This document shows positions 28,622 through 64,000 of a stretch of 64,000 nucleotides of DNA, piece by piece. Within the stretch, counting starts at the first letter, position 1. Every line of letters begins with the position of its first letter. Under the pieces are notes generated by a model, which was not told the DNA's origin, did not search any database, and saw nothing but the letters and a program-made list of their open reading frames with translations. The stretch is from Escherichia coli (GTDB lineage: Bacteria > Pseudomonadota > Gammaproteobacteria > Enterobacterales > Enterobacteriaceae): assembly GCF_030384885.1 (NCBI RefSeq), contig NZ_CP128613.1; one strand, 5' to 3'. The translations under genes and the position numbers were made by a program.

Positions 28622-29241
28622 ATTTCCTCCACATCCACTGTCTAAAAATCATGATGGTCTATTCAGGATATTCATTCCTTAAATGTTTCCAGCAAATTAA
28701 TAGATTAAGCGAATAAATTATCCTTTGCATTCACTTTCATATCAGCATACTCCTGCTGCACAATAACTCCACTGCATGTGTCAGAAGGTTAGCATCAAAT
28801 GATAACCTGGTGAAATAGCCTGGAGACATTTAAAATATCTACATTAAGTTGTTAGAAATACTTAATGAAAAACAGAATTCTCATTCATTTAATTTATAAT
28901 TAAAAAATATTTCTTCTCGCAAAATAAAAAATCACACAATCAATATTTATTCAATAAAATCTGATAGTTTTATCTTTTGTAAAGCCTAAAAAAGCACTCA
29001 GTTATCGATAATCCCGATTCGTAAAAACCAGACCATACATTCATTATGTCGATAATATTCACGTTATAATTTATTTACAGCTTGAGATTATTCGTTTTTT
29101 ACCCTCCGAGCCTCTCCCGATAACCAGGATTAATCAGCGCAATTTTGATCTTAACCTGCCGCAAAACAACCGCGCTTCATGATACAAATGGATTCTCATA
29201 ATTTGAACAATACGCAGCGCGTCTATGACAAAGGGCGAGTT

Positions 29242-58374: not shown

Positions 58375-58535
58375 CAGCGTTTACTCCCGGTTAACCACCG
58401 GGAGCCTTCCACTGACTCAATAGAAACTTTCCCCCTCAGTAAATATTTACCAGTCTGATTTTGCAGTAAAAATCTATTGTTTCAGTACGTTGCGAAAGCG
58501 ATAATAGAGGCTTAGCAATGAGGAAGGCATATCTT

Positions 58536-59915: not shown

Positions 59916-60961
59916 TGGAACAGCCCGTGATACCTGTCCGTAATATCTATTACATGCTTACCTATGCATGGGGTTATTTACAGGAAATTAAGCAGGCCGA
60001 CCTTGAAGCCATTCCCGGTAACAATCTTCTTGATATCCTGGGGTATGTATTAAATAAAGGGGTTTTACAGCTTTCACGCCGAGGGCTTGAGCTTGATTAC
60101 AATCCTAATACAGAAATCATTCCTGGCATCAAAGGGCGAATAGAGTTTGCTAAAACAATACGCGGCTTCCATCTTAATCATGGGAAAACCGTCAGTACGT
60201 TTGATATGCTTAATGAAGACACGCTGGCTAACCGAATTATAAAAAGCACATTAGCCATGTTAATTAAGCATGAAAAGTTAAACTCAGCCATCAGAGATGA
60301 AGCTCGTTCACTTTATAGAAAATTACCGGGCATTAGCACTCTTCATTTAACTCCACAGCATTTCAGCTATCTGAATGGCGGAAAAAATACGCGTTATTAT
60401 AAATTCGTTATAAGTGTCTGCAAGTTCATCGTCAATAATTCTATTCCAGGTCAAAACAAAGGACACTACCGTTTCTATGATTTTGAAAGAAACGAAAAAG
60501 AGATGTCATTACTTTATCAAAAGTTTCTTTATGAATTTTGCCGCCGTGAATTAACGTCTGCAAACACAACCCGCTCTTATTTAAAATGGGATGCATCGAG
60601 CATATCGGATCAGTCACTTAATTTGTTACCTCGAATGGAAACTGACATCACCATTCGCTCATCAGAAAAAATACTTATCGTTGACGCCAAATACTATAAG
60701 AGCATTTTTTCACGACGAATGGGCTCAGAAAAATTTCATTCTCAAAATCTTTATCAACTGATGAATTACTTATGGTCGTTAAAGCCTGAAAATGGCGAAA
60801 ACATAGGGGGCTTATTAATATACCCCCACGTAGATACCGCAGTGAAACATCGTTATAAAATTAATGGCTTCGATATTGGCTTGTGTACCGTCAATTTAGG
60901 TCAGGAATGGCCGTGTATACATCAAGAATTACTCGACATTTTCGGTGAATATCTCAAATAA
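59915..60961 (+). CDS. mcrC: McrC, nuclease subunit of McrBC
   Basis: 348-aa ORF starting at a GTG that overlaps the mcrB stop; PD-(D/E)xK-like C-terminal region (...IVDAKYYK...). Confidence 0.92.
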   Translation: MEQPVIPVRNIYYMLTYAWGYLQEIKQADLEAIPGNNLLDILGYVLNKGVLQLSRRGLELDYNPNTEIIPGIKGRIEFAKTIRGFHLNHGKTVSTFDMLNEDTLANRIIKSTLAMLIKHEKLNSAIRDEARSLYRKLPGISTLHLTPQHFSYLNGGKNTRYYKFVISVCKFIVNNSIPGQNKGHYRFYDFERNEKEMSLLYQKFLYEFCRRELTSANTTRSYLKWDASSISDQSLNLLPRMETDITIRSSEKILIVDAKYYKSIFSRRMGSEKFHSQNLYQLMNYLWSLKPENGENIGGLLIYPHVDTAVKHRYKINGFDIGLCTVNLGQEWPCIHQELLDIFGEYLK

Positions 60962-61017
60962 GCGGTAAGTTTTATAGAAAATACCGCTCCCGACACCACA
61001 TCGGGAGCGGCTCATCA

Positions 61018-61353
61018 TCAGGAGGCGATCACCTCCACCAGCACATCCGTTGCCCAGCTCTCTTCACTGTTGACCACATTCCCTTCCTGACAAGCTTGAT
61101 CCATTTTGACTAACTGGAAAGAAACGTCATCGCGGAAATCAAAGTAATGCCATTGCGATGAAAAGTTGATGCGCCAGTAGCCCATCCCCTGATCGAAGCG
61201 GATCTTCAATACCTGACCATCCTCAAAAGTCACCGTCAGTTTACGATGGTGAGGGATATCGCGCGGCGAGTCGAACACCGTCAGTTCTACCGGCCTGCCC
61301 AGCGCAGCAGCAAACCACTGATCAGCGAAATCCTGAAAATCCGCTATGCTCAT
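61018..61353 (-). CDS. Hypothetical protein, downstream member of a coupled gene pair
   Basis: 111-aa ORF whose ATG overlaps the stop of the upstream 277-aa ORF (ATGA overlap); no motif I can recognise. Confidence 0.4.
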
Positions 61354-62183
61354 CCAGTCATGGAAAGGCCGGTTAGCAGTCCATTCAAAAAATGCGTTCC
61401 TGTTTCATCATCTAACGGTATTGGAAACTCGCTTCGCCAGGTAGGGTGAACCTTATCAAGCTGTTGTACTGGTTCTTTGTGATTTATTAGGTTGTGAGTA
61501 AGTACTAAGGAATTGAGGTTATCAGCCATATGACTGATAAGTTCTACAGAGGTATCTTCGCTAAAAACAGTAGGCAGCGCTGATTTTTCTATGACAGCTC
61601 TTGCCAGCGAAAGGGCTGAAAAACCTGACTGCTTTGCTTGCTCATATTGTCCAAGGATCCTGGAGAAAACAGCCAGAAAGCGACTGTCTGATTCTTTGAG
61701 TAGCCGGAAAGGTAAACCACCTTCACTGAATAATGTTCCGAGAAAATTGCGTCGTTCAGATTCATAAAATCGAATTGGGCGCAGCCAGTAATCTTCCATC
61801 CCTTTCGGTACGATAGTACCAAGCTCTGTGGCGGTGAATGAAATCCCTATTTTTTTATATATAGGGTCCCACGTCCATCCGCATTGCCGTTCATAATCCC
61901 TGCGGTACCACTCAGAGCAAAAAAGAACAAAACAGGCAGCAAAGTCCCTATTACATATATTAGATTGTGATTGACCGACTGCACGGAGTAGCTGCGTTAA
62001 TTGGGTATATTCATCATTGGTTGCATGATATTCATAAAGAGGACGGCCATCCGGTTGTCTCAACCCTCTAAGATTCACAAAGTTACTTAGCCAGGAAGTA
62101 CATTTTACCCATGAAATGTATTCTGATTGACCCAAAGCAAGCTCCTTAGAGATAAAAGATACAAAAACAAAACCCCACAACAT
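61350..62183 (-). CDS. Hypothetical protein, upstream member of a coupled gene pair (may correspond to part of the K-12 yjiV/yjiT pseudogene region)
   Basis: 277-aa ORF convergent with mcrC; weak RBS; preceded by a markedly AT-rich spacer of about 460 bp. Confidence 0.4.
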
Positions 62184-62643
62184 TTCTAATTTGAAAGAAA
62201 ACCTTTCAGAATATTGTATAGTTACTCAGGCGGCAACAACTATTTTTTCAGGTCGATACTATAAATCAATTTTAGATAAAAATGATATCAACCATCTATT
62301 AATCACAACTCATTTATCACCTGATTTTATAATTTCAAATGAAAATAAATCTCAAACAATCAAAAAGTATTCAGTAGCTGACATTTAACTTTCCAGGATA
62401 TAAAACAATTAGAGAAACTGCACAATAGCGAATAATGAGAGTTGTAAAGTCAGTCAAAAAACACAAGTAATCACTGTGCGTTTTTTGACCGTTATCGACA
62501 TGAGTTTAAAGAGGTTAGTGAAGAAGATATTCCTGTACACTCCATACCTATTGATGAATTGTCTCGGGAAAATTTTTATAACTTAATATAAAAACATAAA
62601 AACGTTTTATTATATATAAATCTATATCCCCCCTCACTCCACA

Positions 62644-62808
62644 TCCTCCCTGCGTAACCCGATATCCCTCAACCGCTCATCACTCATCTGCTGTAACACG
62701 CGTCGGGTCTGCATTTGCCGCCGCCAACGCCTCACCGCCTGCCAGAGTTGCACAAGGCCGATAAACGGCGCTTTAGCTCTGTTTTCGTGAAATTCCATCT
62801 GCTGCCTC
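62644..62808 (-). CDS. yjiS: DUF1127-family small protein YjiS
   Basis: Not in the supplied track (under 60 aa). Reverse-strand translation gives MEFHENRAKAPFIGLVQLWQAVRRWRRQMQTRRVLQQMSDERLRDIGLRREDVE (54 aa). Confidence 0.75.
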
Positions 62809-62974
62809 CTCATCTTTCAGAGGCTTCATCATCCGCCTTCTGGCAGTTCACAATACAGATGCAAATATTAGTTTTATTTAACATACAGACAGGTTAAAAC
62901 AACATCTGCATCCGGTTTTTTAGCCTCATCTGTACCGGTTTTTCTCTCTGTATGGTCCAAATAAGGAGTACAGC

Positions 62975-64000
62975 ATGACGCGTTATCAACATCTGGCGAC
63001 TCTGCTTGCCGAACGGATTGAGCAAGGGCTGTATCGTCACGGGGAGAAATTGCCGTCGGTGCGCAGCTTAAGTCAGGAGCACGGCGTCAGTATCAGCACC
63101 GTGCAGCAGGCGTATCAGACGCTGGAGACGATGAAGCTCATCACTCCGCAGCCGCGTTCGGGTTATTTTGTCGCACAACGTAAAGCCCAGCCGCCAGTAC
63201 CGCCGATGACGCGTCCGGTGCAGCGCCCGGTGGAAATTACCCAGTGGGATCAGGTGCTGGATATGCTGGAGGCGCATAGCGACAGTGCCATTGTTCCGTT
63301 AAGCAAAAGCACGCCGGATGTCGAAACGCCCAGCCTGAAACCGCTGTGGCGGGAGCTAAGCCGGGTGGTGCAGCATAATCTGCAAACCGTTCTCGGTTAT
63401 GACTTGTTAGCCGGTCAGCGAGTATTGCGAGAGCAGATTGCCCGCCTGATGCTCGACAGCGGCTCGGTGGTCACCGCCGATGACATCATCATCACCAGCG
63501 GCTGCCATAACTCGATGTCGCTGGCGTTAATGGCAGTGTGTAAACCGGGCGATATTGTCGCGGTCGAATCCCCCTGTTATTACGGTTCGATGCAGATGCT
63601 GCGCGGCATGGGCGTGAAAGTGATTGAAATCCCAACCGATCCAGAAACTGGCATCAGCGTTGAAGCGCTGGAACTCGCGCTGGAACAGTGGCCGATTAAA
63701 GGCATCATTCTGGTGCCAAACTGTAATAATCCGCTGGGATTTATTATGCCGGACGCACGCAAACGGGCCGTTCTCTCTCTCGCTCAGCGTCATGATATTG
63801 TGATTTTTGAAGATGATGTCTACGGCGAACTGGCGACGGAGTATCCGCGCCCGCGGACCATTCATTCCTGGGATATCGACGGGCGAGTGCTGTTGTGCAG
63901 CTCGTTCAGTAAAAGCATTGCACCAGGCCTGCGCGTGGGCTGGGTCGCGCCGGGACGTTATCACGATAAACTGCTGCATATGAAATATGCCATCAGCAGC
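62975..64000 (+). CDS. yjiR: MocR-family regulator YjiR (GntR HTH fused to aminotransferase-like PLP domain); 3' end beyond the window
   Basis: Not in the supplied track (no stop within the window). Translation from the ATG at 62975 gives MTRYQHLATLLAERIEQGLYRHGEKLPSVRSLSQEHGVSISTVQQAYQTLE... (GntR HTH), then an aminotransferase fold with SFSKSIAPGLRVGW (PLP-lysine motif); RBS AAGGAG upstream. Confidence 0.85.
   Translation, partial: MTRYQHLATLLAERIEQGLYRHGEKLPSVRSLSQEHGVSISTVQQAYQTLETMKLITPQPRSGYFVAQRKAQPPVPPMTRPVQRPVEITQWDQVLDMLEAHSDSAIVPLSKSTPDVETPSLKPLWRELSRVVQHNLQTVLGYDLLAGQRVLREQIARLMLDSGSVVTADDIIITSGCHNSMSLALMAVCKPGDIVAVESPCYYGSMQMLRGMGVKVIEIPTDPETGISVEALELALEQWPIKGIILVPNCNNPLGFIMPDARKRAVLSLAQRHDIVIFEDDVYGELATEYPRPRTIHSWDIDGRVLLCSSFSKSIAPGLRVGWVAPGRYHDKLLHMKYAISS

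What the first reader, a model, noticed from the sequence alone, without database searches (positions are those of the whole stretch)
62184..62643. Very AT-rich spacer of about 460 bp between yjiS and the hypothetical gene pair
GC content drops sharply across this stretch (long A/T runs such as ATAAAAACATAAAAACGTTTTATTATATATAAATCTATAT). It may be the promoter region of the downstream pair, the scar of a deletion relative to K-12 yjiT/yjiV, or horizontally acquired DNA. The 65-aa ORF inside it (62191-62388) has low-complexity, AT-driven composition and is unlikely to be real.
Basis: seen in the sequence. Interest (0 to 1): 0.25.

Follow-up and report, generated by a model that had tools for sequence, protein, structure and literature searches.

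The report
AT-rich upstream region of yjiT/druH
This very AT-rich 0.5-kb stretch is the ordinary, already catalogued intergenic region between yjiS and yjiT of E. coli K-12-like strains, most likely the H-NS-bound promoter and leader of a now-broken Druantia III phage-defence operon, and it is not a deletion scar.

Summary
Window 62184-62633 has 28.7% G+C against a 51.1% window mean, the lowest 450-bp stretch in the 64 kb.

It is not a deletion scar. Window 64000-61374 aligns without gaps to K-12 MG1655 at 99.0%. The spacer is 99.6% identical to K-12 and 100% identical to strain 2013C-4282. The real deletion junction lies at 61374/61375, about 760 bp inside the neighbouring gene.

The "hypothetical gene pair" is what remains of a Druantia type III defence operon. 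The 277-aa ORF holds the first 254 codons of DruH (= YjiT). The 111-aa ORF is the C-terminus of DruE. 8,528 bp are missing relative to the intact relative.

The spacer is the first DNA of the variable immigration control region. It occurs in 631 of 5,426 complete E. coli genomes. In the others, similarity stops at the yjiS stop codon.

Published genomic SELEX on K-12 places an RpoD holoenzyme site and an H-NS site in this spacer, with the promoter TTGAGA-18-TATAAA. That sequence lies at 62355-62326 (minus strand) and is invariant in eight alleles.

The true yjiT start is the TTG at 62135, so the non-coding stretch is 62136-62633. The 65-aa ORF carries in-frame stops in three alleles and is not a gene. 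The finding is ordinary and already known.

The parts
62136..62633 (-). Non-coding AT-rich spacer between the yjiS stop and the yjiT/druH start (498 bp, 29.3% G+C). It is the first DNA of the variable immigration-control-region cassette.
   Evidence: Composition. Gapless collinearity with K-12 4571916-4572413. Present in 631 of 5,426 genomes, single copy, chromosomal. Similarity of the other genomes ends at window 62624-62634.
62634..62813 (-). yjiS (DUF1127 small protein), the conserved framework gene. K-12 and PGAP annotate a 54-aa version inside this 59-aa ORF. A C-run (62628-62633) abuts its stop codon.
   Evidence: ORF list. Annotation of matching DNA in thousands of genomes. C-run length varies from 5 to 8 among alleles.
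62451..62491 (-). Conserved palindromic hairpin (18 pairs, A6/U6-containing stem). Its role is unknown. Candidates are the 3' end of the yjiS transcript, an insulator, or a protein operator.
   Evidence: Inverted repeat I2. RNA fold -20.1 kcal/mol, z = -4.88, 0 of 200 shuffles as stable. Stem unchanged, or changed to a wobble pair, in 9 alleles. No U-tail follows it, and the terminator scan finds nothing.
62326..62355 (-). Best candidate sigma-70 promoter of yjiT/druH: TTGAGA-18 nt-TATAAA.
   Evidence: The same hexamers are published for the K-12 yjiS>yjiT spacer, with RpoD and H-NS SELEX binding (PMC3946193). Unique exact match in the window. Best score (10 of 12) in my relaxed scan. 0 of 30 positions vary among 8 alleles. 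It fails the stricter scan because the -10 hexamer lacks the final T.
62142..62147 (-). Shine-Dalgarno AAGGAG, 6 nt upstream of the TTG start codon of yjiT/druH (62135-62133).
   Evidence: Sequence. Invariant in alleles. The K-12 and PGAP start maps to 62135. The DruH profile begins at residue 17-19 of the long ORF.
61374..62135 (-). druH' (= yjiT'): the first 254 codons of the 1,096-aa DruH, followed by 7 out-of-frame codons and a stop at 61350-61352. Pseudogene.
   Evidence: PADLOC DruH3, E = 7e-139, profile positions 3-257 of 1100; NCBIfam YjiT_fam. 100% identical to L012 19966-20727.
61374..61375 (.). Deletion junction with 2-bp TA microhomology. 8,528 bp are missing relative to the intact druHE of strain 2013C-4282, and 3,322 bp relative to K-12.
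   Evidence: BLAST end-points. Junction sequences. No complete genome carries this junction in one piece.
61018..61375 (-). druE' (the end of K-12 yjiV): the last ~119 codons of the 2,114-aa DruE helicase. The 111-aa ORF is read from an internal ATG.
   Evidence: PADLOC DruE3, E = 1.2e-21, profile positions 1955-2053 of 2055. Collinear with the end of K-12 yjiV and with L012 11080-11437.
62191..62388 (+). 65-aa TTG ORF: a chance ORF, not a gene.
   Evidence: In-frame stops in strains 789 (two), 602354 and AJ1; the other changes are almost all amino-acid-changing. No family match in PADLOC or NCBIfam. PGAP calls it in PEC408 but not in the other seven full-length annotated relatives inspected, where the spacer carries no feature.

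Best explanation
The stretch is the native 5' regulatory region of yjiT (= druH), the first gene of a Druantia type III (druH-druE) anti-phage operon. That operon sits at the yjiS-proximal edge of the E. coli immigration control region.

Read on the minus strand, it contains in order:
- the untranslated tail of yjiS;
- a conserved 18-pair palindromic hairpin (62491-62451);
- a sigma-70 promoter, with TTGAGA-18-TATAAA at 62355-62326 as the best candidate;
- a leader of about 180 nt with no predicted structure;
- a strong ribosome-binding site (AAGGAG) and the TTG start at 62135.

Its extreme AT content makes it a binding platform for the xenogeneic silencer H-NS. H-NS most likely keeps the promoter low, with transcription factors modulating it. 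In this strain the promoter now drives only a 261-aa DruH stump, because an 8.5-kb deletion further downstream (junction 61374/61375) destroyed the operon. The spacer itself is untouched.

Shown here: composition, collinearity, accessory distribution, gene identities, start codon, and non-coding status. Shown by others on the 99.6%-identical K-12 sequence: RNA polymerase and H-NS binding in vitro, and plus-strand (K-12 orientation) transcripts inside yjiT. Inferred: the exact promoter hexamers, silencing by H-NS in vivo, and the role of the hairpin.
For: Position and strand: the spacer lies between the yjiS stop (62634) and the yjiT start (62135), all on the minus strand.

Gene identity: DruH3 at 7e-139 and DruE3 at 1e-21. 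The intact druH (1,096 aa) and druE (2,114 aa) lie behind a 100%-identical spacer in strain 2013C-4282.

Published binding: PMC3946193 Table 3 lists 'yjiS > HNS > yjiT, TTGAGA-18-TATAAA' among RpoD-holoenzyme SELEX sites that overlap H-NS sites. That sequence occurs once in the window, at 62355-62326 on the minus strand. It is the best hexamer pair in the spacer and is invariant in 8 alleles up to 5.6% diverged, where 9-18% of sites vary in the segments on either side of it.

Other published signals: a sigma-32 ChIP-chip target from Wade 2006 maps into the spacer, though it was not reproduced. YiaU ChIP-exo reports binding and differential expression for yjiT. Tiling arrays detect sense-strand transcripts inside yjiT in K-12 (coordinates shifted by +1,977 to version 3, a shift that one search supports).

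Comparison within the window: the only other trough below 33% G+C is the yjjP/yjjQ spacer, also H-NS-marked in the same paper.

Other Druantia III loci also have an upstream G+C dip: a 474-bp spacer in Pseudomonas luteola and a 211-bp spacer on an E. coli IncF plasmid.

Decay pattern: the spacer is complete in every lineage inspected where druHE has decayed by deletion (K-12, HS-01, AJ1, 602354 and this window). In a sixth, AMSCJX03, an IS1 cuts it.
Against: - The built-in promoter scan finds no site in 61900-63000, against 3.8 expected from shuffles. The candidate -10 hexamer TATAAA lacks the highly conserved final T, and the 18-nt spacing is not optimal.
- No transcription start site was mapped here.
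- SELEX is an in-vitro assay with a resolution of a few hundred bases.
- The RpoS SELEX peak maps about 200 bp inside yjiT rather than in the spacer.
- The sigma-32 ChIP signal was not reproduced.
- Invariance of 30 bases among closely related alleles is weak evidence (about 0.04 by chance at 10% variable sites).
- No H-NS ChIP data for this exact strain or sequence were available to me.
Confidence: 0.8

Rival explanations
1. The stretch is the scar of a deletion relative to K-12 yjiT/yjiV, that is, junction DNA left where genes were lost.
For: A deletion relative to K-12 does exist nearby: 3,322 bp of K-12 (4573176-4576497) are absent.
Against: Window 64000-61374 aligns to K-12 4570549-4573175 with no gap at 99.0%. 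The spacer alone is 99.6% identical to K-12 over all 450 bases. The break in collinearity is at 61374/61375, 761 bp left of the spacer, inside the yjiT coding sequence.
Confidence: 0.01
2. The stretch is compositionally foreign filler with no regulatory role. Its AT-richness would simply reflect the base composition of the donor of the cassette, and yjiT would be transcribed by read-through from yjiS.
For: The spacer is accessory DNA, present in 631 of 5,426 genomes and beginning exactly at the yjiS stop. The neighbouring mcrBC genes have 38-40% G+C. No canonical terminator separates yjiS from yjiT, so read-through is possible.
Against: The genes it travels with are not AT-rich enough to explain 29%: druH has 45% and druE 51% G+C. 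RNA polymerase holoenzyme and H-NS bind the K-12 copy in vitro. The spacer is retained at 94-100% identity in lineages whose druHE genes have decayed independently. A -20 kcal/mol hairpin stands between yjiS and the candidate promoter.
Confidence: 0.12
3. The stretch encodes an unannotated small protein (the 65-aa ORF or a shorter one) or a small RNA.
For: PGAP calls the 65-aa ORF in strain PEC408. The 36-aa ORF at 62476-62586 is open in all 9 alleles. The hairpin at 62451-62491 is unusually stable.
Against: The 65-aa ORF has in-frame stops in 3 of 8 full-length alleles, and its other changes are almost all non-synonymous. Every substitution seen inside the 36-aa ORF changes an amino acid. Neither ORF has a family match. 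No Rfam family reaches even half of its gathering score. The 200-nt leader folds no better than shuffles (z = +0.42). K-12 RefSeq annotates nothing here.
Confidence: 0.05

Closest known systems
The yjiS-yjiT intergenic region of E. coli K-12 MG1655 (NC_000913.3 4571916-4572413)
   Same: It is the same locus. The two are gaplessly collinear and 99.6% identical over the spacer, with the same flanking genes and orientation. The spacer is listed as an RpoD and H-NS binding spacer with promoter TTGAGA-18-TATAAA in PMC3946193.
   Different: Two base differences (62588 and 62398). Downstream, K-12 keeps 505 codons of yjiT and 2.7 kb of yjiV, whereas this strain keeps 254 codons and 0.36 kb.
H-NS-bound AT-rich promoter spacers of accessory genes in E. 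coli, such as the yjjP/yjjQ-bglJ spacer in the same window
   Same: Both are about 0.5 kb and below 33% G+C. They are the two lowest troughs of the 64 kb. Both are marked as RpoD-binding and H-NS-binding spacers in the same SELEX study.
   Different: yjjP/yjjQ is a divergent spacer in core DNA with experimentally studied silencing (my own knowledge). The yjiS-yjiT spacer is co-directional, belongs to an accessory cassette, and has no in-vivo study that I could find.
Upstream regions of other Druantia type III (druHE) operons
   Same: druH is the first gene, preceded by a non-coding stretch with a G+C dip: 474 bp in a Pseudomonas luteola plasmid and 211 bp in an E. coli IncF plasmid next to Zorya II. 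[quoted passage not shown]
   Different: I made no sequence comparison with these spacers. The 30-nt promoter string is absent from the representative genomes of 100,044 species. The dip here is deeper (29% against 45% in druH). A Marinobacter locus has only 77 bp upstream.

Membership tests
Deletion scar relative to K-12 | A break in collinearity with K-12 inside the interval | tested here: not met
   Gapless alignment of window 64000-61374 to K-12 4570549-4573175. The spacer matches K-12 over 450 of 450 bases at 99.6%. The junction is at 61374/61375.
Sigma-70 promoter region | -35 and -10 hexamers close to consensus at 16-18 nt spacing, upstream of and co-oriented with a gene | tested here: inconclusive
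   TTGAGA-18-TATAAA at 62355-62326 (minus strand) scores 10 of 12 and is the best in the spacer. The stricter scan reports no site because the -10 hexamer lacks the final T.
Sigma-70 promoter region | RNA polymerase holoenzyme binding and a mapped transcription start | not testable with these tools
   Binding is published for the K-12 copy by genomic SELEX (PMC3946193). I found no start-site mapping. Sense transcripts inside yjiT are reported in PMC3009722.
H-NS-silenced xenogeneic DNA | AT-rich relative to the genome, and accessory | tested here: met
   29% against 51% G+C. Present in 631 of 5,426 genomes, with the boundary at the yjiS stop.
H-NS-silenced xenogeneic DNA | H-NS occupancy, and derepression in an hns mutant | not testable with these tools
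   An in-vitro H-NS SELEX site is marked for the K-12 spacer. I retrieved no in-vivo data. The 10-mer high-affinity motif has only one 2-mismatch match in the spacer (62551-62560).
Immigration control region variable cassette | Located between the framework genes yjiS and yjiA, with alternative contents among strains | tested here: met
   In 2013C-4282 the order is yjiA-mrr-hsdRMS-symE-mcrBC-druE-druH-spacer-yjiS. ST131 and other strains have symE directly next to yjiS. O157 has GmrSD and DUF262 genes there. The ICR is defined in PMC3874165.
Druantia type III defence system (the downstream 'gene pair') | A full-length DruH (about 1,100 aa) followed by a full-length DruE helicase (about 2,100 aa) | tested here: not met
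   Only DruH profile positions 3-257 of 1100 and DruE profile positions 1955-2053 of 2055 remain. 8,528 bp are deleted relative to the intact operon. These are remnants, not a functional system.
Protein-coding gene (65-aa ORF 62191-62388) | Reading frame kept open, with purifying selection among alleles | tested here: not met
   In-frame stop codons in strains 789, 602354 and AJ1; mostly non-synonymous differences. No family hit.
Known RNA family (Rfam 15) | A score at or above the family's gathering threshold | tested here: not met
   The best hits inside the spacer are eukaryotic or archaeal snoRNA models at 12-17 bits against thresholds of 36-65.

The most novel reading that the evidence does not exclude
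The AT-rich spacer, with its conserved hairpin, is a dedicated control switch for Druantia III. H-NS would hold druHE silent, and infection would relieve the silencing, for example through phage anti-H-NS proteins or titration of H-NS by AT-rich phage DNA. Expression of the defence would then be coupled to the same host factor (H-NS/StpA) that a 2026 preprint finds associated with DruE during infection. A second, weaker possibility is that the C-run and TTTCCCCCTCA motif at the yjiS stop is a recombination site used for cassette exchange in the immigration control region.
Probability: 0.08. Interest if true: 0.45.

Novelty: already known. Interest (0 to 1): 0.08.

Why it matters
It matters little as a discovery. 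The stretch is a known K-12 intergenic region, already catalogued as an RNA-polymerase and H-NS binding spacer.

Its practical value is for annotation:
- It moves the deletion end-point to 61374/61375.
- It corrects the yjiT start to the TTG at 62135.
- It removes a spurious 65-aa ORF.
- It identifies the two 'hypothetical' ORFs, and K-12 yjiT/yjiV, as remnants of a Druantia type III operon.

The locus also shows that Druantia III at this site has been deleted or truncated in different ways in different E. coli lineages, while its upstream region was left complete in most of them. If the native regulation of druHE is ever studied, this spacer is the obvious place to start.

Tried and rejected
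- Rfam at a permissive E-value over 60900-63100 gave only sub-threshold snoRNA and miRNA noise.
- The built-in promoter and terminator scan of 61900-63000 found no sites of either kind. I kept the published promoter only as the best candidate.
- Folding the presumed 200-nt leader gave z = +0.42, so there is no structured leader or riboswitch-like element.
- Folding the 130 nt after the yjiS stop gave z = -1.34, which is not significant and shows no canonical terminator.
- The H-NS high-affinity 10-mer search gave a single 2-mismatch hit in the spacer, which is uninformative.
- The repeat search found only short AT-rich chance pairs apart from the hairpin.
- Phage and plasmid collections: no phage match, and the single 'plasmid' hit is a 4.9-Mb chromosome filed as a plasmid. 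This gives no sign of a mobile-element origin.
- An exact search for the 30-nt promoter string in one genome per species (100,044 species) gave 0 hits, so no relatives of the spacer outside E. coli were obtained.
- I considered reading TTTCCCCCTCA (58428) and CCCCCCTCA (62628) as a target-site duplication of one inserted cassette. I dropped this because strain AJ1 shows mcrBC and druHE to be separable cassettes.

Full report
**1. The observation**

The stretch is as AT-rich as described. G+C is 0.287 over 62184-62633 and 0.291 over the stated 62184-62643. The window mean is 0.511, and the standard deviation of 450-bp windows is 0.055. Only 0.07% of all 450-bp windows are as low, and the window-wide minimum (0.278) starts at 62177 (profile). 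The quoted A/T string is at 62588-62627, and the 65-aa TTG ORF is at 62191-62388.

The surrounding ORFs on the minus strand are yjiS (62634-62813), a 277-aa ORF (61350-62183) and a 111-aa ORF (61018-61353). mcrB, mcrC and symE lie to the left on the plus strand, and yjiR lies to the right.

**2. It is not a deletion scar**

BLAST of the reverse-complemented window against K-12 MG1655 gave two gapless blocks:
- window 64000-61374 = K-12 4570549-4573175 at 99.0%;
- window 61375-57536 = K-12 4576498-4580337 at 97.7%.

The only break in collinearity is therefore at 61374/61375, where 3,322 bp of K-12 are missing. The whole spacer lies inside the first block. On its own it matches K-12 strains over 450 of 450 bases at 99.6%, and strain 2013C-4282 at 100%.

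**3. What the 'hypothetical gene pair' is**

- The 277-aa ORF matches PADLOC DruH3 (E = 7e-139, profile positions 3-257 of 1100) and NCBIfam YjiT_fam.
- The 111-aa ORF matches the last 100 positions of DruE3 (E = 1.2e-21).

In strain 2013C-4282 the same locus reads yjiA-mrr-hsdRMS-symE-mcrB-mcrC-druE (2,114 aa)-druH/yjiT (1,096 aa)-spacer-yjiS. The window is 99.99-100% identical to that strain on both sides of a clean 8,528-bp gap (L012 11438-19965) with 2-bp TA microhomology.

The gap is not a multiple of three. DruH codon 254 therefore runs into 7 out-of-frame codons and a stop. The 111-aa ORF is the DruE tail read from an internal ATG. No complete E. coli genome carries this junction in one piece.

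Other lineages carry different deletions or truncations of the same operon:
- K-12: yjiT of 505 codons plus the yjiV pseudogene;
- HS-01;
- AJ1;
- 602354.

DruH is assigned to the YjiT family, and the immigration control region context is noted, in a 2026 preprint.

**4. Where the spacer belongs**

Of 5,426 complete E. coli genomes, 3,783 match the 2-kb query. Most do so only from query position 1725-1735 onward, that is, from window 62624-62634, which is the yjiS stop codon and the C-run next to it.

The spacer itself is in 631 genomes. It is always chromosomal and single-copy, and it lay next to yjiS in every genome inspected. Identity is 94-100%, apart from one record in the 80-90% band. 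It is absent from phages and from true plasmids.

Strains without it have symE about 42 bp from yjiS, or other defence genes such as GmrSD and DUF262 in O157. The spacer is therefore the first DNA of the variable cassette of the immigration control region, which is defined as lying between yjiS and yjiA (PMC3874165).

'Horizontally acquired' is right in that sense. It does not by itself explain the composition, because druH has 45% and druE 51% G+C. The extreme AT content is specific to the non-coding stretch.

**5. Anatomy of the spacer (minus strand, the direction of yjiS and yjiT)**

I aligned nine alleles and tallied variable sites.

- **Start codon.** The ATG at 62183 is ATA in two alleles, and in HS-01 it is lost and followed by an in-frame TAG. 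The TTG at 62135, 6 nt after AAGGAG (62147-62142), is invariant. It is the K-12 and PGAP start and corresponds to the start of the DruH profile. The non-coding stretch is therefore 62136-62633 (498 bp).
- **Candidate promoter.** PMC3946193 lists the K-12 spacer 'yjiS > HNS > yjiT' among RpoD-holoenzyme SELEX sites that overlap H-NS SELEX sites, with the promoter TTGAGA-18-TATAAA. That string occurs once in the window, at 62355-62326 on the minus strand. It is the best hexamer pair in my relaxed scan, and none of its 30 positions vary among eight full-length alleles. The caveat is that the -10 hexamer lacks the final T, so the stricter scan reports nothing.
- **Hairpin.** A palindromic hairpin at 62491-62451 folds at -20.1 kcal/mol (z = -4.88; 0 of 200 shuffles as stable) and is conserved. 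It has no U-tail and is not a canonical terminator.
- **Leader.** The leader of about 180 nt is the most variable part (18% variable sites) and folds no better than shuffles.
- **IS1 insertion.** In strain AMSCJX03 an IS1 sits inside the candidate promoter spacer.

**6. Other published signals on the K-12 copy**

- A sigma-32 ChIP-chip target labelled yjiT lies at 4570170 in version-2 coordinates, which maps inside the spacer. It was not reproduced.
- An RpoS SELEX peak lies about 200 bp into yjiT.
- YiaU ChIP-exo reports binding and differential expression for yjiT.
- UV-repressed sense transcripts lie inside yjiT.

The conversion from version 2 to version 3 (+1,977) rests on my own knowledge. 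It is consistent with the placements inside mcrC and mcrB.

**7. Coding and RNA alternatives**

- The 65-aa ORF has in-frame stops in three of eight alleles, and its other differences are mostly non-synonymous.
- The 36-aa ORF stays open, but every substitution in it changes an amino acid.
- Neither ORF has a family match.
- Rfam gives nothing near threshold.
- K-12 RefSeq annotates no feature in the spacer.

**8. Comparison with other Druantia III loci**

DruH homologues on plasmids are also first in the operon and are preceded by a G+C dip. The upstream stretch is 474 bp in Pseudomonas luteola and 211 bp, shared with a divergent Zorya II, on an E. coli IncF plasmid. A Marinobacter plasmid has only 77 bp. 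The 30-nt promoter string is absent from one representative genome of each of 100,044 species. A 2026 preprint still speaks only of a 'native putative promoter' for druHE.

**9. Verdict**

The stretch is the upstream regulatory region of the downstream genes and is accessory DNA, but it is not a deletion scar. The 65-aa ORF is not real.

The most likely mechanism is a sigma-70 promoter and leader of yjiT/druH embedded in H-NS-binding AT-rich DNA. In this strain it drives only a truncated pseudogene. This is the known K-12 yjiS-yjiT intergenic region, so the finding is ordinary and already known, and interest is low.

Noticed in passing
window 61374-61375 (with 61018-62135): A private 8,528-bp deletion with 2-bp TA microhomology fuses druH codon 254, out of frame, to the last ~119 codons of druE. 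No complete E. coli genome has this junction in one piece. K-12, HS-01, AJ1 and 602354 each carry a different deletion or truncation of the same Druantia III operon, so the operon has decayed in different ways at this site.
   Followed up: yes
window 28622-29178: This is the only other stretch below 33% G+C in the 64 kb. It is the divergent yjjP/yjjQ-bglJ spacer: its flanking ORFs are 99-100% identical to K-12 YjjP and YjjQ. The same SELEX paper also marks it as an H-NS and RpoD binding spacer.
   Followed up: partly
window 58428-58438 and 62628-62636; L005 5995-6009: TTTCCCCCTCA lies just downstream of symE and resembles CCCCCCTCA at the yjiS stop, where similarity to other E. coli genomes ends. 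The 'empty' ST131 site has a single TTTTCCCCCTCA between symE and yjiS. The C-run length varies from 5 to 8 among alleles. It could be a recombination or junction motif of the cassette system, or chance.
   Followed up: partly
window 62451-62491: A conserved 18-pair palindromic hairpin (-20.1 kcal/mol, z = -4.9) lies in the middle of the spacer, about 100 nt upstream of the candidate -35 hexamer. It has no U-tail, and its function is unknown.
   Followed up: partly
L010 3288-4000 (strain AMSCJX03), corresponding to window ~62339: An IS1 is inserted inside the spacer of the candidate yjiT promoter. Everything from there to hsdS is replaced in that strain.
   Followed up: no
window 60988-61009; L002 5814-5836: The hairpin CTCCCGA-CACCACA-TCGGGAG lies between mcrC and the druE remnant. 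It is the same hairpin that lies between symE and druE in strain AJ1, which lacks mcrBC. This suggests that mcrBC is a separate cassette inserted beside a shared bidirectional terminator.
   Followed up: no
window 62183 versus 62135: The longest-ORF start of yjiT (ATG at 62183) is not conserved. The TTG at 62135, with the AAGGAG ribosome-binding site, is the real start, so a longest-ORF call overextends the gene by 16 codons.
   Followed up: yes
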